Of a stretch of DNA of 64,000 bases, positions 7,392 through 59,462 are shown piece by piece. Numbering within the stretch: the first letter of the stretch is position 1; each line of letters opens with the position of its first letter. The stretch lies in NCBI GenBank assembly GCA_963693365.1, contig CAVNZM010000002.1, positions 744,001 to 808,000 of the forward strand, read 5' to 3'. The position numbers were made by a program, and so were the translations under genes. Under the pieces are notes generated by a model. It was not told where the DNA came from. It ran no database searches and saw only the letters and a list, made by a program, of their open reading frames with translations. The DNA comes from Amoebidium appalachense (Eukaryota > Protista > Ichthyosporea).

Positions 7392-8748
7392 ATGTTCGGC
7401 AAGAACTTTCTGATGTCTGCCATGGTGGCAGCTGCAAGCGCCCTCGTTGGTGAGTAAAGTGTTGACGTGTTGCTTAGATTCATTTACACGACAGGTGTGC
7501 ACTGTGGAGTTTTTAAATAATACATACTTCTTTTTTGGACTTGCCAATGTCGTTTGTTGACTCTTGGCATGGCAGTAGTAACCTGTGTTTGCAACATTCC
7601 TTGTGATTGCAGTTTTCGTTACCAGGGTACAACAGTTGGTGCACCACTGTTCTGAGGGTGATCCTTTAGGCTATATATGTCGCCCCGCACTGTTCAGGCC
7701 CCTTCGGGGACAACGCAGGATTGATATTAACTAAAATGGTAAACAAAGGCATACCCCCAGAGCCAGAGCCTGACCAGATTTATTACTCTGAAACTCACTT
7801 AAGCATGACATTCGCCCCCGGCCCCCCCAGCCACTGCCCAGGACAGCGCATGCACCTGCCCTGTCCGCGGCTGCACGGCACCTCTGGAGGCCTGGGGCCC
7901 GCTCAGCGGCTACAACCTTGTGGCCCTTAATGATTTGTCTGCCGGTGCGGCCGAAATCGAGGGGCCTGTAGCTGTGGGGGGCACCTTTAAGGTGGTCACC
8001 ACCACCGGGGCCCAGGGAGGCATTGGTCACATGCTCTACTGCGAGCCGGGTGAATTCAACAACAACTGCCCAGCCAGCCTGACTAACGTGGCCAGCTCTC
8101 TGGCTCTGGGCTCACGCACGTGCAGTGAGCTAGCGAAGGACAGCAAGGTGACCAATGGGCTGACGGTTGCCGGGGCCATCCAGAACTACAAGAGCGGGCG
8201 GGTGCAGATGGGTCACATACTGGTCAGCACCGCAATCAAGGAGGCAAATGACCTGGACAGCCACCTGCCTAATGCCGCTGATACTGGATGCCAGGTGCGT
8301 GTGTCACTGCTGATGCGCTTTACGTACATATCTGCATTGGCCATGGTTAGCTGTATGTAGACGACTCGTGGCCTCGAGCGCCTCTCCGAAGCGCACCCCC
8401 GTAAACTATGCATGCAGTTACAGCTAGTCTCACCGTAACTTGATCACAATGAGGTGGTATGCATTTTACACCAGGCCCTTTGAAAATTCCCCCTTTAGAA
8501 TGAGCCCGATGCATCATCTGCCTATGGAAAAATATGCGTCGAAATGGCAATGTTTTAAAAATGTGCATCAAAATGGCAAGGTGCTCCGAGACTCCCTGTA
8601 AAGCTCCCTCCCCTATTTCCCTGGGTGTTCCCTTGCACCCCTTCTTTCTCTCTCTCCCTCTGACCTGCAAGAAACAGCACCGATTCCTCAAAAACATATT
8701 ACAATATTACCATGAAGGCACATAACTGACTCCCTCCCCCCCCCTCCC

Positions 8749-8782
<34 letters not shown>

Positions 8783-9349
8783 CAGGTGATTGGTGACGGC
8801 AGCCTGTTCACGCTGTTTGACGACCTACGAGCCAAGGCCAGTGAGCTAGTGGCCTACTACACCTCACTGCCTGCCTCTGGCATGGCCCCAGCAGCAGTCA
8901 ACAGCGGCTTCCTCCAGCTAAGGCCCCGTGCCACGGTGGCCTCTGAGGTGATCACCATCGACCCCAGCCTGGTCGGCAGTGCCCGGCAGGTCACGTTCTT
9001 CACCGAGCCAAACACGCAGTCGGGCCAGCTAGTCATCATCGTGCCCGGCACAGGCAGTGTGCGCATGCCTGCCGCAGCCGAAAATGCCCGTGTGCACAAC
9101 ATGGCTTCCAGAACCATCTGGGTGTTTCCAGATGCCACCGAGGTGGTCATGAACGTGCCTAGTGTTGGCTCTCCCCACGTGGGACACATTCTTGCCCCCA
9201 AGGCCACCATCAAGAAGTCTGGCCAGGGCATGTACATTGGCCGTGCTGTGGCCCGCAACATTGAAATTCTGACGCAGGTTAACTATCTGGTGGATAACAT
9301 TGCTCCTGTGTGCAAGGTGTCTCAGCGCACATGCGTTCAGTTTGCGTAA
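7392..9349 (+). CDS. Secreted choice-of-anchor A domain protein (~361 aa)
   Basis: Exons 7392-7449, 7831-8294 and 8786-9349, GT-AG with compatible phases. Signal-peptide-like MFGKNFLMSAMVAAASALVATA. Family-like motifs YNLVALNDL..EIEGPVAVGG, LVIIVPG, TIWVFPDAT and GHILAPKA..G.AVA. The end could alternatively splice at 9316. Confidence 0.75.
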
Positions 9350-12996: not shown

Positions 12997-14058
12997 GGGG
13001 GGGAAAGGGAGGAGGGACGGGTGGACCCACCCACACACCCATGCACATCCACGCGCACGGACACATACTCGTGAGCCTCGACACATTCTAACACACAAAC
13101 ACACCTCCACCCACCCACCCACCCACCCACCCGCCGGTATGTGCCCAAACACGATGACTCTCTGCCGGGCTGCTGATGCAGCCTGCAGTTCCGACTCCAG
13201 CCAATCAAATTGCACCTGCATGACCATGGACCAATAAGGTTAATGCTTCTGCATTGTCACCTCGTGCTGACACAATGCAGCTGCTTTTGTGCTCCTTAGC
13301 TGCGGCCAAAAGAATTAGTCGCTGAGACTCGTGTACATACAGGGCATTCCAATGACAGGCACAGCGTCAACACGGATGAATGTGCCACGTGTGTGTGTGT
13401 AAGCAGGCAAGTTTGAGGGCATTCACACACACACGACTTACGGCCACACACACACACAAACACATCACACATGCCCCCCCCCCCCCCCCCCCCTCCCCTC
13501 CCCCCTCCCCCCCCCCCCCCCCCCCCCCCCCCCAAACACACACACACACAGCCATCTGTGATTGTGATTAAGCATACCTGCGTAATGCCGCCGTTCCATT
13601 CGACGGCATTTGGCCTGCCCTGATTGGCTGCCAGCCATTCCCTGGCCTGCTTGTGATTGGCTGTGCCTTCGGGCCACGTGGTGGCCATGTCCTGGCTGTC
13701 GATGACAATAAACCGCCACCCTGCATGGGGATTTGGATTTTAAGTCTAAAATCTTTAAAATTAAATAAACCGCCACCCTGCATGGGGATTTGGATTTTAA
13801 GTCTAAAATCTTCAAAATTATATAAACCGCCACCCTGCATGGGGATTTGGATTTTAAGTCTAAAATCTTGAATATTCGATCGATCGAAAAGGAAAGCGTA
13901 TAAACACATCATGTAAGAGGAAGAATAAGAGGCCAAGGCATTTGTATTGGTCGGTGCAGAACCATACATTGCAGCAGCACGTGTCCGTATACCGTGGGAT
14001 CGAGCACGTGTGTGTGTGTGTGTGTGCATGTGTGTGTGCATGTGTGTGTGCGTGTGTG

Positions 14059-15181: not shown

Positions 15182-15251
15182 TACACACACACACACACAC
15201 ACACTTGGCCCACCAGTAGAAGATTGGGGGAGAGGGGGGGATTTGAATGCA

Positions 15252-30543: not shown

Positions 30544-31866
30544 CACACACATACACACACATGCACATTCACACATACAAACACACGCACATCCCCCATC
30601 CCCCTCCCCAGCCTTTCCGATCTCTCCCCACACCGCTACCTAAGGGCTTAGATCGCTTTTCCCCTTCATTTTTTGTTATAATTAATAGTTTTATTCCCAC
30701 CATTACCATTACCCCCCGGATAATTTGTCTTGGTTTTACAGTTGTAACAACGCAACAGCAGAATGGGTAAAGTTGGTCTCTGTTAGGGAAGTAAGAGCTT
30801 CTTCTTTTTTTTTTTTTTGCAGGGGGGAGGAGGGGGAGGGAGTTGTAGTTTGATGGTATTACCTCCAGTCTTCCCGTGTTCCAGCCACGTTAAATCACCC
30901 ACGGGTCATCCTAAAGCCCCCCCCCCACCCCCCGCCTTCCCCCCCCCCCCCCCCCACCCCCCCCCCCCAAAAAAACCAACCCCCTTCTCCTCTTCAACTT
31001 CCTCCACAGCCCCTCCCCTCCCCCCCCCCCCCCCGTCGTTGGGCCCTCCCTGAGGATGGGCTCTGCTTATGACGCATACTGTGCGCATGGCTGATGTTGC
31101 ATACTTGAATGTTTGCCTTTGCATGTGTCCTTCGTGTATGCGTACTTCGTACCGTGTTCCGCATTCAAACCCCCCCAGTCTTCTTTCAGAGGTGTCCTTT
31201 CAGGACAGACCACTGTGTGGAGACCGCTTTACTTCCATGCAACCGGGCATGGTTGCTCTGTGTCGTGCATCTGTAAACACATACGCATTTTCCGCTGCAC
31301 TGCATTAGTTTGCACACACATATTCACCGTTTTGCTCACCTTGCTTGCATAAGCAACCCTGCTCGTCTTTGATCAAGACGGGTTGACCCTCCCAAGTTCA
31401 GTTGATGCTGCTGTCTGAGTTGGAGAGTCGTATATACGCGGGCTAAGGGGTCGAAACTCAGACGCAATTGATGACTTGGGCCCTCCCTGAGGATGGGCTC
31501 TGCTTATGACGCATACTGTGCGCATGGCTGATGTTGCATACTTGAATGTTTGCCTTTGCATGTGTCCTTCGTATATGCGTACTTCGTACCGTGTTCCGCA
31601 TTCAAACCCCCCCCCCGTCGTTCCCTCTTCTCTCGAACTCAAAGACCCCAATAATGTTGTACACACAGGTGTGTGTGCATGCCATATTGTTGTTTTCGCC
31701 TTGCATCTCTTCACTTTGCACCACGGAACACACATTAACCCTCCAACCCCGCTCTCCCCTTCCCCCCCCCTTTCCCCCCCCCCCTCCCTCCCCCCTCCCT
31801 CCCTTCCCCCTCTCCACACAACCACACACACGCGTAAACGTACATGTGCGCGCGAGCGTGATTCCA

Positions 31867-31956
<90 letters not shown>

Positions 31957-33453: not shown

Positions 33454-33502
<49 letters not shown>

Positions 33503-33534
33503 CACACCACCACCCCCTCCTCATGAAACCTCCT

Positions 33535-33582
<48 letters not shown>

Positions 33583-33615
33583 ACCACACCACCACCCCTC
33601 CTCATGAAACCTCCC

Positions 33616-33665
<50 letters not shown>

Positions 33666-36072
33666 AAAAAAAAAAACACCCACACATACATTATACACCC
33701 CCTCTTCCCCCCCCCCCCCCCCCCCCCCCCCCGGCGCCCCCCAAACACACAAACATACATTACACACCCACACACCCTCCCCAAAAACCAGGATTTCCGC
33801 AAGCAAGTCATCCGGCCCCGTGTGCTGTACCGGTTCCTCGAGCTGACCCTTTTGGTAATCGTGACCACCTCGGTGTGTGTCTTCATCCCCGTCCTGCCCG
33901 GACTGGACACCTGCCGGCCCATTTCCTCAGCATTCCGGTCGCAATTTAACCGGATTGGCGACCTGTGTGGGGGGTACTGTATCGATAAGACCCCCAAATA
34001 CAACAAGACGTGCTTTGCGTCCAACCTGTGGAACCAGTGCAACACCCACACCATGGAGACCGAAATTAGCCACCAGGTAAAGACCCCCCCCCCCCCCCCA
34101 AAAAAAAAAAAAAAAAAAAAAAAGCCGCCCCACCCCCTTCCTTGACCCTTCCTTTTGCATGCCCCCCCTCCCCCCCCCCCCCCCCCCTCCCCCCTCTCCC
34201 TCCTCCCCTCCCCCCCCCCCCCCTCTCCCTCCTCCCCTCCCCCCCCCCCCCCCTCTCCCCTCCCTCCCCCTCCCCCCCCCCCCCCCCCCCTTCCCCCATG
34301 TTCCCTCTCCCTTCTTTTCCCTCCCTCGATACTGCCCTAGCTTCCCTCACTAAGCTACATTTCTTCTGTACCCCCCCCCCCCCCCCCCCCCCCCCGCCCT
34401 GCCCCCGGCCCAAATGCTGAGCCACAATACTTTCTTCCAGAGTCCCCCTCTCCCCCCTCTCCCCCAACACTGAGCCACGTTTCTTCTGCTCACCGCCCTA
34501 ACACCCTTCCTCCCCCCTCCCCCCCCTAGGCCATGACCCAGCTCTTCCTGACGGTGTTTGACAAGTGTGACGGCTACTCAGGCAACTTTTCCTATTTTGG
34601 CAAAGGCCAGCGGCTCAGTGTAGCCCAGCAGGCCTTCAAGGACGTCAACCTTAACCACATGGTCGTTAAGTTCGCCACCCCCACACACAATTCAGCGACA
34701 GCCCTCGCCCACTCAGGCGGTGACGAAGGCAAACCGGAATTGGCTGGAGCCAATCACGGAGCCCCAGTCGCAGCATCGGATCACAAGGCGGGCACGGTGG
34801 GAATCGCTCAAGCCCATTCGTCGCCTCCGGAAATCGAAAGCGGCCGGACGATGATTTCCCAAATCGAGAAAGACGATCACCAGGAGGAGGACGAACACCA
34901 CGAGGCAACCAATCATGCGGCTGCAGGTGAAAAGAACGAGGCCGAGGAAAAGGGAGAGGGGAGTGGACACGGCGCTGCGAGTGAAAAGAAAGAGGAAAGC
35001 GGCGAAGGAACCGGTCACGGTGCTCCAAGTGAAAAGAAAGAGGAAAATGGAGAAGGAAGCGGCCATGGTGCCCCAAGTGAAAAGAACGAGGTCGAGGAAA
35101 AAGGTGAGGAAGCCAACCACGGCACTCCAAATGAAACCAACGAGGAGAAGCCCCCTGCAGCCCAATCCCCCGATACCCCTAGCACGAGGCAATCTCTCGA
35201 ACCCGAACACAGTGCACCGAACAACACCACGAACCCCCCCGCCAATGTTGCGCAGCCCGCCCTTGGTGACGGTCCCACAGAGCAGAACCCAGGGCTTGAA
35301 AATTCGGCAAAAAAAATTGCACGGGCCCCCCATTCATGCGGCACTTGTACAACCAGGCCCTATGGTGGATTTGGTGAGTGAGGAATTTGGTTTTGAGCTG
35401 CAAGAATCCCCCCTCGCCGACGCCAAAGAAGGTCAGCAGGCGAGCAATCCTATTGGTGGGCACACAGCTGAGCCTGGTGTGATTGATGGGCCATCACGTA
35501 TTGGGCGGTCAGCCGAGCAACTGGGTGACTTTGTGGCGTTGGCCCACATAGCTGGTGCCACTGGAGTGACGGACGGCCTGCCAGATGACCTCAAGGTGTG
35601 TTAGAACAACCCGCCCCTCTTCTTTCCCCATCGGAGCATTCTGTATGTGTGTGCTTTGCAAGGACCTGTATGGTGTTGTCCACCGTGGACGTGTGCTTTG
35701 CTTCTATTTCAACCCCCCTTCACCCCTTTGCGGCTCATCTGTTCTTCTTTTCCCAGGTGTGTTTGTGCTTCCAGTCCATCGCCCCTCCCCCATCCCCCCA
35801 TCCCCCGTGTACTACTGTTATGTATTGCACAGTGTCACAGCCACACGTACGATTTGTATGTTGTGCTAAGCTGGTTTGTGTTCTCATACTGCGTGAACAC
35901 CCCCCCCCCCCCCCCCCCCCCCCCCCTCCTTTTTTTTTTTAACACTTCGTTACCCAAACACTCCATTCCTTACCTTCACAACACCCACCCTCCCTTCCAC
36001 ACCCTCCCGAAGGCAGCCACACATGCGGCTACAACCCTTCTTCACACAACAAATCCCTTAGCCCGTTCCAAG

Positions 36073-36106
<34 letters not shown>

Positions 36107-38123
36107 CCCCATGGATGATATTAAAACTTTACCATCCAATCAGTCTGCAGTGCGTACACGTCGTTCCGGTGCCGCCGCTGGCCCACCGGCATGCTTCTAC
36201 GAGCTTCGATCCCTTCTGTGGGTCAGCAGCCACGGCACGATCAAACACCTTTTCTCGATGGGCGTTTACGATCTCTTCTCGTTTGGATCGCTAATCGTGT
36301 TCTTATCGGTGTATACGCCCATTGCCATTGCCACCAGCGGGGTGGCCCTGCCTGCCGGTATGGTGGTGCCTGTGATGTTGATTGGGGCGGCGGGCGGCAG
36401 ACTGATGGGTGGGTGACGTCATGACACATTCTCTCTCTGTCCGTGTCTCTTCTCTTTCTAGTTTTCTCTCTCCCTTCACCCCCCACCCCCCGTCTCTTTC
36501 CTTCTCTCGCTCTCTCTCTGTCTCTAACTCTTCTCTCTCTCTCTCTCTTGCCTCTCTCTTCCGCTCCTGTCTCTTGCTCTCTCTCTAACCCCCCCCCCCA
36601 CACACACACACCACCCCACTTCACCCACCCAACCACCCACTCACTTGCTCTCTCTCATTCTGAGGATGGGCTCCAATTATGTTACTTATTTTGAGTCTCG
36701 GCTACATCTCCTCCCCTTCCCATAACCTAACCCCATCCCCCCTCCCCCCACCTTTTTTTTCCTCCTTCGCCCATACAGTCTTTGCTCACATTATGCTGTT
36801 TCATTCTTTGTCTGTGACCTAACCTCATTGTGTGTCATTGCCGTTAAATTCAATCCCCCCCCCCCCCACCCCCCCCCCCCCTCCCTCCCCCCTCCTCCCG
36901 CGAATACCCAAATATGGAACTCCCACCGCTATGGTGGAAATCCACGACTACAGCGTCACCCCTCCCCCCCGTTCCCCACCTTCCCTTTCTTTCTCCACCT
37001 GCTGGTTGTGTGCTGACTGGCTCCCTCCTTCCTCGTTTATTTCACAGGCATCGGGCTCAACGTTCTTTACGAGGAGGTCGGAATTGCCCCCATCGACCCA
37101 GGCGGCTACGCTATCCTTGGCGCATGCGGGCTGTGGACGGGGGTCATGCAAATTCCGTTCACTGTGTGCATCATCATGTTTGAAATGACGGGGTTCAACG
37201 TCACCATGTGGGGTCCAGAGCTATTGGTGGTGGTTTTGGTGTCGACGACGGTCTCTAGATGGTTCGGGCACTCTCTATATCACATGGAAATGCACTTGAA
37301 CCATATCCCGTTCTTGGGCTTCGACGCACCGAAAGAACTCGGAAAAATGGATATACAAGAGATAGCCTCAAAACCCGTAATTTCGCTGAAAGCCGTCGAG
37401 GGGTTGCAAAGGGTGCGCAAGATATTGTCGGAGACCACCCACAATGCTTATCCATTGGTGGACGAACACGGCGTTCTGATTGGTCTGGTGCTCAGGGAGG
37501 AGTTGGAAATTTCGTTCCTCGAGGTGGTTAGGCAAATCGGTGGACGATGTGAGTTTACCTGCACCCCCCCCCCCCCCCCCCCCCCTCCGCCCCCTCTTTC
37601 CCCCAGGGGAATAGGTCGAAACTCGGGTACTGTGGATGACGTGGGCCCCCCCTGAGGATGGGCTCTGCTTATTATGCATACTCTTTATGTATGGCTTGCA
37701 TTCTGCATCGTGTTATCCGTTTGTTCTTGTGTACTTCGTACTTTTTGACGCATTCAAAACCCCCCCTCCCCCTCCCCCCAACTTCCTCCCCTCCGCTCCT
37801 CCCGCTCTCCCGAGAACACCCCCCCCCCCCCCCCTCCCTCCCCCCTCCCCCCCCCCCCCCAAAAAAAAAAAAAAAAGAAAGAAAAGAAAATAAAAGAAAA
37901 GAAAAGAAAAGAAAAGCAACGATAACTAAGACGTTGATGAGCACCCACACACCACCACCAACTTTGCATCTCCTCCATCCGTTTCCCTTATGCAGATGTA
38001 GAACCAAAACAATTGGGAAGCTTAGGCACCGGCATTTGAATGACGGGTTATACCATTGTATGTAGACTATTTGCTGATTCCACACCCACAAAGGCATATC
38101 CATTGTTCTGTTTTGTTTTCACA

Positions 38124-38164
<41 letters not shown>

Positions 38165-38609
38165 AAGAGTGAAAATAAGTTACCAGTTCTGTTGCATCCT
38201 CTATTGCAACTAAACCGACCAATCACATGCAGGGTGGGACAGCGACGAGCCAATCAAAATCCACGAATACCACCACAGCCCCACCACCGTTATGCCTACA
38301 GACCGGGCGAGCCACGCATACAACATGATACGTCAGCTGGGGTTGAGGTATCTGGTGGTGGTCGATTCGAATCACCGACCCGTGGGTATTGTGACCCGAA
38401 AAGACCTTCAGATTCACCACGGGGAACACGGGCATGGGGGCCACGGCGATTCACATGGCGGTCATGGAAATTCGCATGGGGGGAACCATGATGAGGTGAA
38501 CCATGATGAGGTCGTCCGGGGTCTAAGACATTTGGATTCACTGTCGAATCTGTCTGTAATTTCGCATATTGATGGGGTAGAAAGCGGAAGGGAGGGAAAG
38601 AAGGAATAG
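29140..38609 (+). CDS. CLC-family chloride channel / Cl-/H+ antiporter with two CBS domains (CLC-6/7-like, divergent), ~1120-1190 aa
   Basis: Exons 29140-29369, 30283-30445, 31956-32274, 32660-33039, 33792-34076, 34530-35373 (or to 35595 with a 1-nt indel), 36151 (or 36144)-36408, 37048-37548, 38233-38609. Motifs [28 protein letters not shown]...[55 protein letters not shown] and [10 protein letters not shown]...GIVTRKDL. Confidence 0.92.
31039..31606 (+). mobile_element. Non-autonomous, non-coding retroelement-like repeat: 437-bp monomer plus a 131-bp partial tandem copy, flanked by a C10-GTCGTT target-site duplication
   Basis: 31039-31169 is repeated at 31476-31606 (period 437). CCCCCCCCCCGTCGTT occurs at 31025-31040 and 31607-31622. 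Further copies occur elsewhere in the window. Confidence 0.8.
37611..37758 (+). mobile_element. Diverged, 5'-truncated copy of the same repeat family (last CLC intron)
   Basis: Retains GGTCGAAACTC, GATGAC.TGGGCC, CCTGAGGATGGGCTCTGCTTAT, GTACTTCGTAC and the terminal GCATTCAAA + C-tract. Confidence 0.7.
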
Positions 38610-39113: not shown

Positions 39114-39324
39114 TGATATTTTGCTCTGTAATCGTATTTTGATGATCATGATTGAGATTGGCAATCCGATAGGCCCATGTACCCCCTGAGCAACATCTAA
39201 TGATAGCAGCAGAAAGCTGTCCATTTTGCTCTATCAATTCTTCCGATTTTGGGGGAAACTTGCAATTGTTCATGTGGTTGAAGTTCGAATCAAAGCCTTG
39301 GACTTTTATCTTCCCCTCCCCCCC

Positions 39325-39360
<36 letters not shown>

Positions 39361-39462
39361 CTACCCCCTCTCCTGATATTTTGCTCTGTAATCGTATTTT
39401 GATGATCGTGATTGAGATTGGCAATCCGATAGGCCCATGTACCCTCTGAGCAACATCTAATG
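39114..39462. repeat. 89-bp near-identical direct repeat with a 260-bp period
   Basis: TGATATTTTGCTCTGTAATCG...GAGCAACATCTAATG at 39114-39202 and 39374-39462, with about 2 mismatches. Confidence 0.9.
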
Positions 39463-43217: not shown

Positions 43218-45971
43218 ATGAAGTCCCTGTTCACTGTTGCGGGCGTGGCTGCCCTTTCCGCCCTCGTTGCGGCCGATGTGCCCATCGACTGTGCGCGCAC
43301 GGAAGTCGAAGGCGACTGGATCTTCTTCCGCTCGCCCAACAATTTCGACAGCCGTGTGAACTGCACCGGCTACTTCGAGAAGAATGGCTATGCAGAGTCT
43401 GTTGCTTTGCGGCTAGCCCACCCCGATGTTGTTGTCGGACCGGACAATGTTCTGGGCCGGTGGACGATGGTCTACAACGAGGCCTTTGAGGTGCGCTGGG
43501 GCGGATACATCTACATGGGGTTCTTTAAGTACCGCCAGATCCCCGGCAGCAACAACACGTACAGCTACTGTGGCCAGACACAGGAGGGCACCTTCCACAC
43601 CCACATGGGTGACTACTGGGGTTGCTTCCAGGCCCGTTTCTCAGACCCTGCCGAGGCTGAGAAGGAGAAGATCTCTGAGCCCGACCCAGTTCCGGGCCCT
43701 GTTAACGATGACTACGACGATAAGAACGGCTTGACGGACTACATGAAGTATAAGATGAGCCAGAGGCTTGCACGTGTCCCCGCGAAGGAGCCCAAGACAC
43801 AGGGGGAAACGGTGGCTCTCATCAACAAGGTGCAGAACTCGTGGGTGGCTGCAGAGTATCCCGAGGACCTGATGGAGACCATTGGTGCCTCTCTTTCCAT
43901 GAGCAAGCCCTTCAACCAGGGGTTCAAGATTGCAAAGGGTAACATGGACTTCACGCACAAGCGTCACCGCAGGTGTGTAAACGCACACTATCTCCCCCCC
44001 CCCCCCCCCCCCCCCCCCCCCCGAAGTTTCGCTGCTCTCGGCCCCACTCTCACGCCTCTCACTCTCCCGCCAAAACACACGCATTCTTATAACCCCCCCC
44101 CTCCCCTCCCCCTTTACCCCTGCCCCCCACTCCCGCCCACCCCTCGCACACGTTTTTCAAAAAGCAACTGTGGCCCTCGATCTCTACAGTACTTGCACTT
44201 GCGTCCGGCTTTTCACCGCTTCACACCTCCCTAGGAATGGGTCTGCTCATTTGCATACTGCACACACACTTCGTGTGTGTATCGTGAAGTTGCATCGTCC
44301 AGTGTGTTGTCGTGCTGTTTGGAATCTCTTCGGCTCACTCTCCTCTCCTCCCCCCTCTTTCCCCCCCCTGCATTGCTCACTACCCCCCCTCCCCCCCCCC
44401 TCCTTCCCCTCCGCTGCGCCCAAAAGTCCTGGTTTTAGAATACTCTTTTCCAGTACATCTTCTCCCCGATTCCCACCTCACAGGAGTCTTGACAGGGGCT
44501 TTGGTGAATGTTCCCTCTGGTCCCCTCCCCCCCCCCCTTCCCTCAACCAGGCCCCTGTTTCGTGCTGCCCCCCCCCCCCCCCCCCCCCCGCCCCGCCCCC
44601 CTGCTTCGTGCTCTCCCCCCCCCCCCCCCCTCTCCCCCCCCCCCCCGGCACACTACCTTTTACTTACCCTCGCCTACTTTACAGGGAGCTCGACAACATC
44701 CCCTCCGAGGCTGCCGATGCCTACCTCCCGGAGAGCTTTGATTGGCGCAATATCAGTGGGGTCAACTACGACTCGCCCGTGCGTGACCAGCAGAAGTGCG
44801 GCTCGTGCTATGCCTTTGCCTCGGCCTCTCTGCTCGAGTCCCGCTGGCGCATTTACACAAACAACCGCCAGCAGCCCATCCTCTCCACCCAGGACGTGGT
44901 CAGCTGCTCGCCTGTGAGCCAGGGCTGTGCCGGCGGGTTCTCCTACCTCACTGCCGGCAAGTACGCCCACGACTACGGTATGGTGGATGAGTCGTGCTAC
45001 CCGTACGAGGGCAAGGACTCGCCCTGCGACATGAACCGCCACCTGAACTGCCCCAAGCACCACGTCAGCAACTATTACTACATCGGTGGCTTCTTTGGTG
45101 CCGGCAATGAGAAGGCTATGATGCGTGAGCTTGTCACCAACGGGCCTATTGCCGTGGGGATCGAGGTGTTCTCTGACTTCCGCAGCTACAAGAGCGGCGT
45201 GTACCACTACACGGGGGTGCAGGGTGAATACGGCCGCCTGGTGACCAAGGATGGCCGTGTGACGGTCAACCACGCCGTGGTGGTGGTCGGTTATGGGGTG
45301 GAGAATGGCGAGAAGTACTGGATTGTCAAGGTGTGTGTGATATGTCCCTTCAATCCCTTTCTCCCCCACCCCCGGAAGTTCCCCACCCCCCACCCATCCC
45401 CCGTCCCCCTCACCCACACACACACACACGTGCACCCCCTCTTTCTCCTAGTATTGCCGTCATCACTGATACAGAACCCTTCAGTTCCCGGCCGGTGTTT
45501 CCTCCACGCACACACAACACACACACACACTCACATTGTGGATTATGCCTGATGCGCAAGCCTGCTCTGTGCACACCAGCAATCACACACTTCGCGCTGT
45601 GCACATGCGCATTCAACACGAAGCAACCCTCGCCATTCACACACACACACACACACACAATGTACACACATGCACCAACCCCCCCCCCCCCCCCCGGGCT
45701 GACCCGCCCAAGTTCAGTTGATGCTGCTGTCTGAGTTGGAGCGTCGTATATACGCGGGCTAAGGGGCCGAAACTCAGACGCAATTGATGACTTGGGTCCT
45801 CCCTGGGGATGGGCTCTGCTTATGACGCATACTGTGCACATGGCTGATGTTGCATACTTGAATGTTTTCCTTTGCATGTGTCCTGCACCATGCTTCTCGT
45901 CGTGTATGCGTACTTCGTACCGTGTTCCGCATTCAAACCCCCCTCCCCCCCACCACCACCACCACACACAT

Positions 45972-46014
<43 letters not shown>

Positions 46015-46325
46015 GTACAAACACATACACCATCCCCCCCCCCCCCCCCCCCCCCCCCTTGCTTCTTCCATCCCCTCCTCTCCTCCTCCTCCCTCCTCCG
46101 TTCCCCTTCCCCCCCCCCCTCCCCCCCCTCCCCCCCCCCCCCCCCCCCCCGGGGATCCCCACCCTTCTTTCATACGGCACACCAATACGTCATTCATAAC
46201 TCTTTTGTTCTTCACAGAACTCCTGGTCGGACAAGTGGGGTGACAAGGGCTACATCAAGATCCGCCGTGGAAACGACGAGATTGGCATCGAGAGCATGCC
46301 CGTGGCCACATTCCCGAAGGTCTAA
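43218..46325 (+). CDS. CTSC: Cathepsin C / dipeptidyl peptidase I (papain family C1A with exclusion domain), ~502 aa
   Basis: Exons 43218-43972, 44685-45330 and 46218-46325. Signal peptide followed by DVPIDC (equivalent to DTPANC), GRWTMVYNEAFEV, LPESFDWRN.SGVNY.SPVRDQQKCGSCYAF, SQGCAGGFSYLTAGKYAHDYG, NHAV and KNSW...WGDKGY.KIRRG.DE.GIES. Confidence 0.96.
45696..45937 (+). mobile_element. 5'-truncated copy of the same repeat family (cathepsin C intron 2), between C-tracts
   Basis: Near-identical to 31380-31606 apart from a few substitutions and a ~15-bp insertion. Ends GCATTCAAA-CCCCC. Confidence 0.85.

Positions 46326-48103: not shown

Positions 48104-59462
<11,359 letters not shown>

What the first reader, a model, noticed from the sequence alone, without database searches (positions are those of the whole stretch)
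31025..31622. Poly-C-targeting, non-coding retroelement family living in introns: fixed 3' end, 5' truncations, 1.3-mer tandem and TSDs
Seen: at least five segments (31039-31169, 31177-31606, 37611-37758, 45696-45937, 52323-52251 on -) share the 3' terminus GCATTCAAA followed by a C-tract but begin at different 5' points. The composite 31039-31606 is one 437-bp monomer plus a 131-bp partial copy, bracketed by C10-GTCGTT on both sides, and the TT is also a microhomology with the element. There is no poly-A tail, TIR, TG..CA LTR or credible ORF. Every copy is intronic and in the host gene's sense orientation. Established: 5' truncation with a fixed 3' end and TSD is the signature of target-primed reverse transcription, and partial-tandem structure is typical of Penelope-like elements and retrozymes. 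Inference: a non-autonomous RNA parasite whose own C7 tract (31170-31176) anneals to nicked G-strands, exploiting this genome's abundant poly-C/G tracts and possibly copied from a circular or multimeric RNA.
Basis: partly seen in the sequence, partly recalled or inferred. Interest (0 to 1): 0.85.

Follow-up and report, generated by a model that had tools for sequence, protein, structure and literature searches.

The report
Poly-C-targeting non-coding Penelope-like retroelement
A 437-base non-coding repeat sits in runs of C inside introns of what is likely an Amoebidium-type protist, and it likely spreads by reverse transcription with a borrowed Penelope-like enzyme, a habit already described in green algae.

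Summary
Five segments at four loci, plus a 9-nt remnant, share the 3' end GCATTCAAA followed by a C-run and start at different 5' points. Clear target duplications flank 2 of 4 loci (16 and 12 bp) and the remnant. Contigs of public runs show a high-copy family with more 5' start points and poly-C behind the 3' end. The tail-C6-8-head junction is family-wide, so the 1.3-mer is no misassembly. The anatomy fits target-primed reverse transcription into (C)n. It is not a new kind: non-autonomous Chlamys Penelope-like elements (MRC1, Chlamys-N4) already show (C)n targeting, 5' truncation, pseudo-LTR tandems, intronic sites and no hammerhead. No ribozyme was found, so it is not filed as a retrozyme; transcription and a circular RNA are unshown. 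The sense orientation is expected from the strand bias of C-tracts. What is new: the host is likely an ichthyosporean, where my searches found no such element described, and an unread 3,391-nt contig of a low-copy relative shares the 5' end and is a candidate autonomous partner. Verdict: new member of a known kind; interest 0.42.

The parts
31025..31040 (+). Left target-site duplication C10-GTCGTT, inside a C15 run; the last TT is shared with the element (microhomology)
31039..31169 (+). 5'-truncated upstream copy (pseudo-LTR), monomer positions 300-430, 130/131 identical to the downstream copy
31170..31176 (+). C7 linker between tail and head; element-encoded, C6-C8 across the family
   Evidence: tables 3, 4; tables 5, 5c
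31177..31606 (+). Full monomer body, 430 nt, non-coding, ending GCATTCAAA; lies in CLC-gene intron 30791-31955
31179..31266 (+). 5' segment shared (9 differences in 88 nt) with the start of an unread 3,391-nt contig of a low-copy relative, the candidate autonomous partner
   Evidence: table 8 (X10 record 2, X9 record 25) and table 3; tables 3, 8
31607..31622 (+). Right target-site duplication C10-GTCGTT
37607..37766 (+). Copy of a second subfamily, 5'-truncated, ending GCATTCAAAA-C7; in CLC-gene intron 37549-38232; no clear duplication
   Evidence: the same diagnostic letters appear as loose ends in 42-90 contigs a run
45695..45943 (+). 5'-truncated copy (start 203) with a 15-nt subfamily insert, between C17 and C6; in cathepsin C intron 45333-46217; no duplication beyond C
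52251..52323 (-). 73-nt 5'-truncated copy (start 358) with a 12-bp duplication C6-TCTCTT and TT microhomology; in a predicted intron 52408-51908
15241..15250 (-). Probable ultra-short remnant: GCATTCAAA plus T, with C7-TCT on both sides; in an intron of a minus-strand phosphoesterase-like gene

Best explanation
This is a high-copy, non-coding repeat family with a fixed 3' end, ragged 5' ends, a C6-8 tail-to-head linker and 10-16-bp target duplications at poly-C tracts, and it is likely a non-autonomous Penelope-like retroelement of the Chlamys type, copied by target-primed reverse transcription with the enzyme of a longer partner. Steps: (1, inferred) an RNA that runs through tail, C7 and head is made from a partial tandem. 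(2, inferred) The partner's endonuclease nicks the G strand of a C/G tract. (3, inferred) The freed G-run anneals to the element's C6-8 and primes cDNA at the fixed 3' end. (4, shown in DNA) Synthesis mostly stops early, giving copies of 9, 73, about 150 and 243 nt here; sometimes it reads past the head into the next tail and gives the 1.3-mer. (5, shown in DNA at 2 of 4 loci and the remnant) A second nick a few bases 3' of the tract and joining over 1-2 shared bases leave a duplication that begins with C's. Copies are intronic and mostly sense because the C-tracts are. The partner is likely the low-copy relative of 3.4 kb or more that shares the 5' end (inferred; its sequence is unread).
For: Fixed end with C-run in 6 of 6 matches; five different 5' starts in the window. 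In public contigs 7 of 15 listed joints (of 126) link a C-run to 6 further internal start points, and 79, 107 and 39 contigs end in poly-C behind the 3' end. Duplications of 16, 12 and 10 bp with rare non-C letters. Tail-head joint in 4 of 4 runs (tables 5 and 5c), linker C6-C8; depth at the head's first base, covered from the tail side, is about 50-77% of the depth 48 nt inside in the three DNA runs (table 3). No ORF, no Pfam or Rfam match, no tRNA. Precedent with the same set of traits: Chlamys elements target (C)n, are often 5'-truncated, form pseudo-LTRs and mostly lack hammerheads; their non-autonomous families form head-to-tail copies (PMC8557442 sections 9, 10, 15); new Chlamys-9/Chlamys-N4 insertions have median 128 bp and are all intronic at (C)n (PMC9977147 section 7). 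Athena and Coprina PLEs attach to G-rich telomere ends with complementary stretches of their own (PMC8557442 introduction). A 3,391-nt contig begins with the element's 5' 88 nt; its diagnostic letters have depth 497 in one contig against 31.6 for single-copy flank in X2, about 16-fold; Chlamys bodies are 3.3-8.2 kb.
Against: No reverse transcriptase or GIY-YIG protein was seen: none among 93 window frames, no whole genome is held, the long contig is unread, and no search with a PLE protein query was run. The long contig is shown to share the 5' end, whereas non-autonomous Chlamys share mainly the 3' end with their partners. Chlamys are reported from green algae, streptophytes, spike mosses and a slime mould, not from Holozoa. 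2 of 4 loci show no duplication beyond C-runs. No inverted 5' copy and no 30-40-bp 'tail', both frequent in PLEs, is seen at the four loci. The joints that mark other 5' starts have only 21-25 letters on the short side, which the tool flags as repeat-prone. No empty site was seen, so recent mobility is unshown.
Confidence: 0.68

Rival explanations
1. A SINE-like or LINE-derived non-autonomous element moved by an ordinary LINE whose endonuclease cuts G-tracts; the tandems come from template jumps.
For: 5' truncation, 10-16-bp duplications and a homopolymer tail that pairs with the target are LINE traits (established knowledge). Monomer positions 236-283 hold motifs that resemble Pol III A and B boxes with one mismatch each (consensus recalled, read from the sequence), and GGTCGAAACTC is kept in the second subfamily.
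Against: One precise tail-head junction is family-wide, which is a PLE trait. The box-like motifs lie mid-unit, copies extend 225 nt upstream of them, and T4 runs at positions 112 and 154 would stop a Pol III transcript before a full unit. ARAGORN and Rfam find no tRNA or 7SL part.
Confidence: 0.16
2. A retrozyme-like element: a 437-nt circular RNA cut and closed by a ribozyme of a kind not yet described, then reverse-transcribed rolling-circle fashion into monomers and multimers. This differs from the best reading in the RNA intermediate, not necessarily in the enzyme.
For: The unit size is inside the 150-450 bp range of non-LTR retrozymes (PMC7229834 passages). The joint is in all four runs laid, one of them guessed as RNA. 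A long hairpin at monomer 213-304 folds with z about -2 in 2 of 30 windows.
Against: No hammerhead: the sense strand has one exact CUGANGA, downstream of its only GAAA, and no GU between them. The HDV-like descriptor gives 0 hits on the sense strand and one AT-rich, overlapping set on the antisense strand. Rfam gives two chance lncRNA matches only. The whole unit folds no better than shuffles, z -0.83. Contigs cannot tell a circle from a tandem.
Confidence: 0.1
3. A non-autonomous rolling-circle DNA transposon (Helitron or Replitron type) that makes tandem and 5'-truncated copies.
For: A fixed 3' end with a small subterminal hairpin (GTAC-TTC-GTAC) and tandem copies; Replitron-1 makes variable duplications (PMC10288648 passages).
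Against: Replitrons have a defined left end, short direct terminal repeats and fuzzy right ends, and most leave no duplication; here the left end is ragged and the right end exact. Helitrons end in CTRR and leave no duplication (recalled).
Confidence: 0.04
4. A miniature LTR element (TRIM): two 138-bp repeats around a 299-bp interior, with solo LTRs elsewhere.
For: The 31039-31613 composite has that outline.
Against: No TG..CA ends; 'solo' copies start at 203, about 264, 358 and 422, some upstream of the supposed LTR start at 300; duplications are 12-16 bp, not 4-6.
Confidence: 0.02

Closest known systems
Non-autonomous Chlamys Penelope-like elements of Chlamydomonas reinhardtii (MRC1, Chlamys-N4_cRei), partners of Chlamys-9_cRei and kin (PMC8557442, PMC9977147, PMC9940879)
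   Same: (C)n target, strong 5' truncation with short copies, pseudo-LTR partial tandems, intronic sites explained by where the target lies, no coding capacity, no canonical hammerhead.
   Different: Host is likely an ichthyosporean, not a green alga. Duplications are readable here at 2 of 4 loci, whereas the paper says they often could not be discerned. The partner protein is not identified, and similarity to the candidate partner is shown at the 5' end only. Sequence kinship to any Chlamys family was not tested.
Non-LTR retrozymes of animals (PMC7229834; bioRxiv 10.64898/2026.07.22.740005)
   Same: Non-coding unit of a few hundred bases, head-to-tail junctions, longer duplications when present, probable dependence on PLEs.
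   Different: No type I hammerhead; here mostly dispersed, truncated intronic copies, whereas those elements are reported as tandem arrays depleted from introns.
Telomere-associated Athena/Coprina PLEs
   Same: An element-encoded C-rich stretch complementary to a G-rich priming strand (PMC8557442 introduction).
   Different: Those lack an endonuclease, sit at chromosome ends and carry hammerheads; this family is interstitial with duplications.
L1/Alu-type TPRT with a poly-A tail (recalled)
   Same: Geometry: a homopolymer at the RNA 3' end pairs with a nicked homopolymer strand; the duplication begins with the homopolymer.
   Different: C/G instead of A/T; the homopolymer is a short templated linker, and tail-head tandems are the rule.

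Membership tests
Non-autonomous Chlamys/Naiad-type PLE | Frequent 5' truncation with a fixed 3' end | tested here: met
Non-autonomous Chlamys/Naiad-type PLE | Partial tandem (pseudo-LTR) with a precise tail-head junction | tested here: met
   31039-31606; junction in 4 of 4 runs
Non-autonomous Chlamys/Naiad-type PLE | Insertion at (C)n or (CA)n microsatellites | tested here: met
   C-runs on both sides at 5 of 5 sites; poly-C loose ends and joints
Non-autonomous Chlamys/Naiad-type PLE | No canonical hammerhead | tested here: met
Non-autonomous Chlamys/Naiad-type PLE | Autonomous partner with N-terminal GIY-YIG, CxC motif and PLE RT in the same genome | not testable with these tools
   No genome held; none in the window; the candidate contig's sequence is not returned
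Non-autonomous Chlamys/Naiad-type PLE | 3'-end similarity to the autonomous family | tested here: inconclusive
   The long contig shares the 5' 88 nt, and a related contig in X9 also matches 9 of the 12 letters of tail and linker before it; its 3' end is unread
Non-autonomous Chlamys/Naiad-type PLE | Inverted 5' copy or 30-40-bp tail (frequent, not obligatory) | tested here: inconclusive
   Not seen at the 4 window loci; too few loci
Non-LTR retrozyme | Type I hammerhead in each unit | tested here: not met
Non-LTR retrozyme | Circular RNA and self-cleavage | not testable with these tools
   All runs laid are contigs
tRNA- or 7SL-derived SINE | Pol III head at the 5' end derived from a small RNA | tested here: not met
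   No ARAGORN or Rfam match; box-like motifs lie mid-unit
TRIM / LTR element | TG..CA LTRs of fixed length with 4-6-bp duplications | tested here: not met
Replitron / Helitron | Fixed left end with direct terminal repeats, or CTRR end without duplication | tested here: not met
   against PMC10288648 passages; Helitron traits recalled

The most novel reading that the evidence does not exclude
A hammerhead-free circular 437-nt RNA parasitises a (C)n-cutting Penelope-like retrotransposon in a unicellular relative of animals. Its own C7 linker is the priming site on nicked G strands, it has seeded thousands of poly-C tracts, and the roughly 15-copy, 3.4-kb relative seen in public contigs is a Chlamys/Naiad-type enzyme donor from a lineage where none is described. 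The partner part alone (a PLE in an ichthyosporean) I put near 0.5; the full reading with the circle is less likely.
Probability: 0.12. Interest if true: 0.75.

Novelty: new member of a known kind. Interest (0 to 1): 0.42.

Why it matters
The mechanism is not new, but the host is. If the 3.4-kb relative encodes a Chlamys/Naiad-type protein, it fills the gap between the algal and slime-mould Chlamys and the animal Naiads with a unicellular holozoan. The family also offers readable duplications and a fixed C6-8 linker over what are likely thousands of sites. That would let one map where a PLE endonuclease cuts a microsatellite and how pseudo-LTRs form, which PMC8557442 (section 15) names as open. 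In practice it names a major intronic repeat of this genome.

Tried and rejected
No whole genome is held, so the genome-wide table of ends was replaced by contigs of public runs. No RNA holder is on record; X9 is RNA by the tool's guess only. X9 has no cover on intron flank 30660-30791, where three DNA runs have 10-32, but the silent flank had no cover in the DNA run either, so that control failed and expression is not claimed. No empty-site joint among the 15 of 126 joints listed; the flanks are poly-C and partly skipped, so this says nothing. Summed contig depth (up to 1.7 million against 31.6 in X2) is not a copy number; I take from it only 'high copy'. Exact-pattern scans found 0 matches in metagenome contigs and viral contigs. 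Rfam: 2 chance matches on 30900-31750, 0 at gathering score in the window. Ribozyme descriptors: hammerhead cores and HDV-like on the tripled unit, both strands; twister, pistol and hatchet only through Rfam and by eye. Resemblances to the SRP S-domain, the hairpin ribozyme and a tRNA D/T arm were seen by eye and dropped, as no model supports them. The 22-nt match at 36660-36681 (E 0.28) has no 3' end and is not counted as a copy. Misassembly of the 31039/31476 repeat is rejected: the copies differ at one base, where the family letter is that of the upstream copy (31573 A>G in about 98% of depth), and the junction is family-wide. An idea that the nick always leaves 6-10 C's on the right fits 5 of 5 window sites (right runs 10, 7, 6, 6, 7; left runs 15, 22, 17, 14, 39) but many contigs carry longer right-hand runs (table 7), so it is not claimed. 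The cathepsin C homolog search did not place the host. Earlier findings of this scan: 3 look-ups, nothing returned.

Full report
Observation. They share the end GCATTCAAA and start at monomer positions 1, 300, 203, about 264-273 and 358. All 6 of 6 occurrences of that 9-mer in the window are followed within one base by C6-C10, against 0.4-0.65 chance occurrences of the 9-mer anywhere. The sixth is a 9-nt remnant at 15250 (-) with C7-TCT on both sides. The composite is 131 + C7 + 430 nt, 1.30 units. Target duplications with informative letters are C10-GTCGTT (16 bp) and, new here, C6-TCTCTT (12 bp) at the 52-kb copy. GTCGTT follows 2 of 384 tracts and TCTCTT 3 of 384. Both end in a TT shared with the element. 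The 45-kb and 37-kb copies show no duplication beyond C-runs. There is no ORF above 79 aa, no Pfam match in the element's frames (93 window frames scanned; 8 matched host-gene families), no tRNA and no Rfam family.

Host context. Two copies lie in introns of a CLC chloride-channel gene (30791-31955; 37549-38232), one in a cathepsin C intron (45333-46217), one in a predicted intron of an unnamed minus-strand gene, and the remnant in an intron of a phosphoesterase-like gene (label from recalled motifs). The only protein found for a CLC exon is 75% identical and is an Amoebidium parasiticum entry of EukProt, so the host is likely an ichthyosporean; this rests on one gene. The window holds 384 C/G tracts of 6 or more, and in genes they are mostly C on the sense strand (35:3, 15:0, 34:8, 16:10). 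Four copies in the first three genes would all be sense with probability 0.69 from the targets alone. 'Intronic and sense' is therefore a property of the target.

The family beyond the window. No genome is held, so I laid contigs of public runs, 6 of the 24 listed. Depth over the element is about four orders above the single-copy flank in three DNA runs; this is summed contig depth and not a copy number. Depth is higher over the 3' third than over the 5' third (about 2.7-fold in X2). Behind the 3' end, 79, 107 and 39 contigs run on into poly-C. 7 of the 15 joints listed (126 in all) link a C-run to 6 further start points (31389, 31391, 31423, 31485, 31569, 31585), each at about single-copy depth and with only 21-25 letters on the short side. 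The tail-to-head joint is in 4 of 4 runs, with C7 or C8 and A or T as first base; C6 occurs in X1. The only loose ends listed before the head are tail letters (24 of 298 rows shown). So the 437-nt unit and its linker are the family's own. Separate, single-copy joints show copies that landed in the C-tail of an earlier copy (31614 to 31456 or 31481 with three spacer letters). Loose ends define at least two more subfamilies, to which the 45-kb and 37-kb copies belong.

A candidate partner. In X10 a 3,391-nt contig (depth 74.8) matches 31179-31266 at its positions 17-104 with 9 differences and then goes on unlike the window. The same diagnostic letters (31224, 31225, 31227) occur in 5 of 6 runs laid (not X12). 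In X2 they sit in one contig of depth 497 against 31.6 for single-copy flank; X1 and X8 give at most 171 against 11.9 and 190 against 10.5, that is roughly 10-18 copies. A low-copy, multi-kilobase relative that starts like the monomer is what an autonomous parent would look like, and Chlamys bodies are 3.3-8.2 kb. The tool does not return its sequence, so it may also be a larger non-coding form or another repeat that carries a fragment.

Mechanism. Fixed 3' end, ragged 5' ends, variable duplications and 1-2-nt microhomology are the marks of target-primed reverse transcription (established knowledge). The duplication begins with C's and the element ends in its own C6-8. So the simplest reading is a nick in the G strand, pairing of the G-run with the element's C-run, and cDNA synthesis that usually stops early and sometimes passes the head into the next tail (inferred). 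The RNA must hold the junction or the enzyme must jump templates. A linear transcript that starts in the upstream copy is enough: Penelope and Chlamys-3_cRei start transcription in the pseudo-LTR (PMC8557442 section 10). A circle is possible but not needed. No hammerhead or HDV-like ribozyme is on the sense strand, and the unit folds like its shuffles. Transcription is not shown.

Comparison with what is known. PMC8557442 (seen: abstract, passages, sections 6, 9, 10, 15, and word searches of its supplement) describes Chlamys PLEs with (C)n and (CA)n targets, 5' truncation, pseudo-LTRs, mostly no hammerhead, and non-autonomous families such as MRC1 with head-to-tail copies. PMC9977147 (passages, section 7) reports new Chlamys-9/Chlamys-N4 insertions of median 128 bp, all intronic, in line with their (C)n target. 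PMC9940879 (passages) confirms the reclassification of MRC1. This family works like those. Membership is met on structure and target and untested on the defining protein. Retrozymes (PMC7229834, passages; bioRxiv 10.64898/2026.07.22.740005, first of five parts) need a hammerhead, which is absent. Replitrons (PMC10288648, passages) differ in their ends.

Is it in print? Searches for a poly-C non-autonomous retrotransposon, for ichthyosporean repeats and for Penelope with ichthyosporeans (3 papers, seen as listings only) showed no description of this family. An Amoebidium genome paper (PMC11244446; passages and a word search of 2 supplementary text files) has 0 hits for PLE or SINE and gives automated repeat classes only; its repeat library and figures were not seen. 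Repbase, Dfam and subscription journals were not searched, so an unnamed consensus may exist.

Verdict. A real, high-copy, non-coding retroelement family that inserts in poly-C; most likely a non-autonomous PLE of Chlamys type (0.68). It is a new member of a known kind, in a lineage where I found none described. Interest 0.42; reading the 3.4-kb contig is the step that could raise it.

Noticed in passing
window 1-64000: Extreme homopolymer load: 384 C/G tracts of 6 or more covering 4,913 bases (7.7%), with 260 C/G runs of 7 or more against 52 A/T runs; C-rich on the sense strand of introns.
   Followed up: partly
window 13707-13876: Three 57-bp tandem copies (96% alike) that triplicate an intron end and its 3' splice site in the minus-strand phosphoesterase-like gene.
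   Followed up: no
window 39114-39462: An 89-bp direct repeat (97.8%) around 171 bp that contain a C33 tract; could be a long target duplication or a local duplication; unrelated to the family.
   Followed up: no
window 33455-33774: About three 80-bp tandem units, each built around a C33-39 tract, in a CLC intron.
   Followed up: no
window 31412-31463: Motifs like Pol III A and B boxes (one mismatch each, consensus recalled) inside a long hairpin; GGTCGAAACTC is kept in the divergent subfamily and may be a promoter or protein-binding site.
   Followed up: partly
window 36660-36681: A 22-nt match to monomer 311-332 (E 0.28) without the 3' end; possibly an old fragment.
   Followed up: no
window 7809-9349: An intron-split gene with a Pfam pAdhesive_15 (ice-binding-like adhesive) domain, E 1.6e-15; a family I recall mainly from bacteria.
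   Followed up: no
window 34530-35381: The CLC gene has a long acidic, repetitive exon ([15 protein letters not shown] units) between membrane segments.
   Followed up: no
run X10, place 31613 (table 7): Four contigs continue behind the C7 with a head-like but different sequence, a hint of a further subfamily or of another element that uses the same tail.
   Followed up: no
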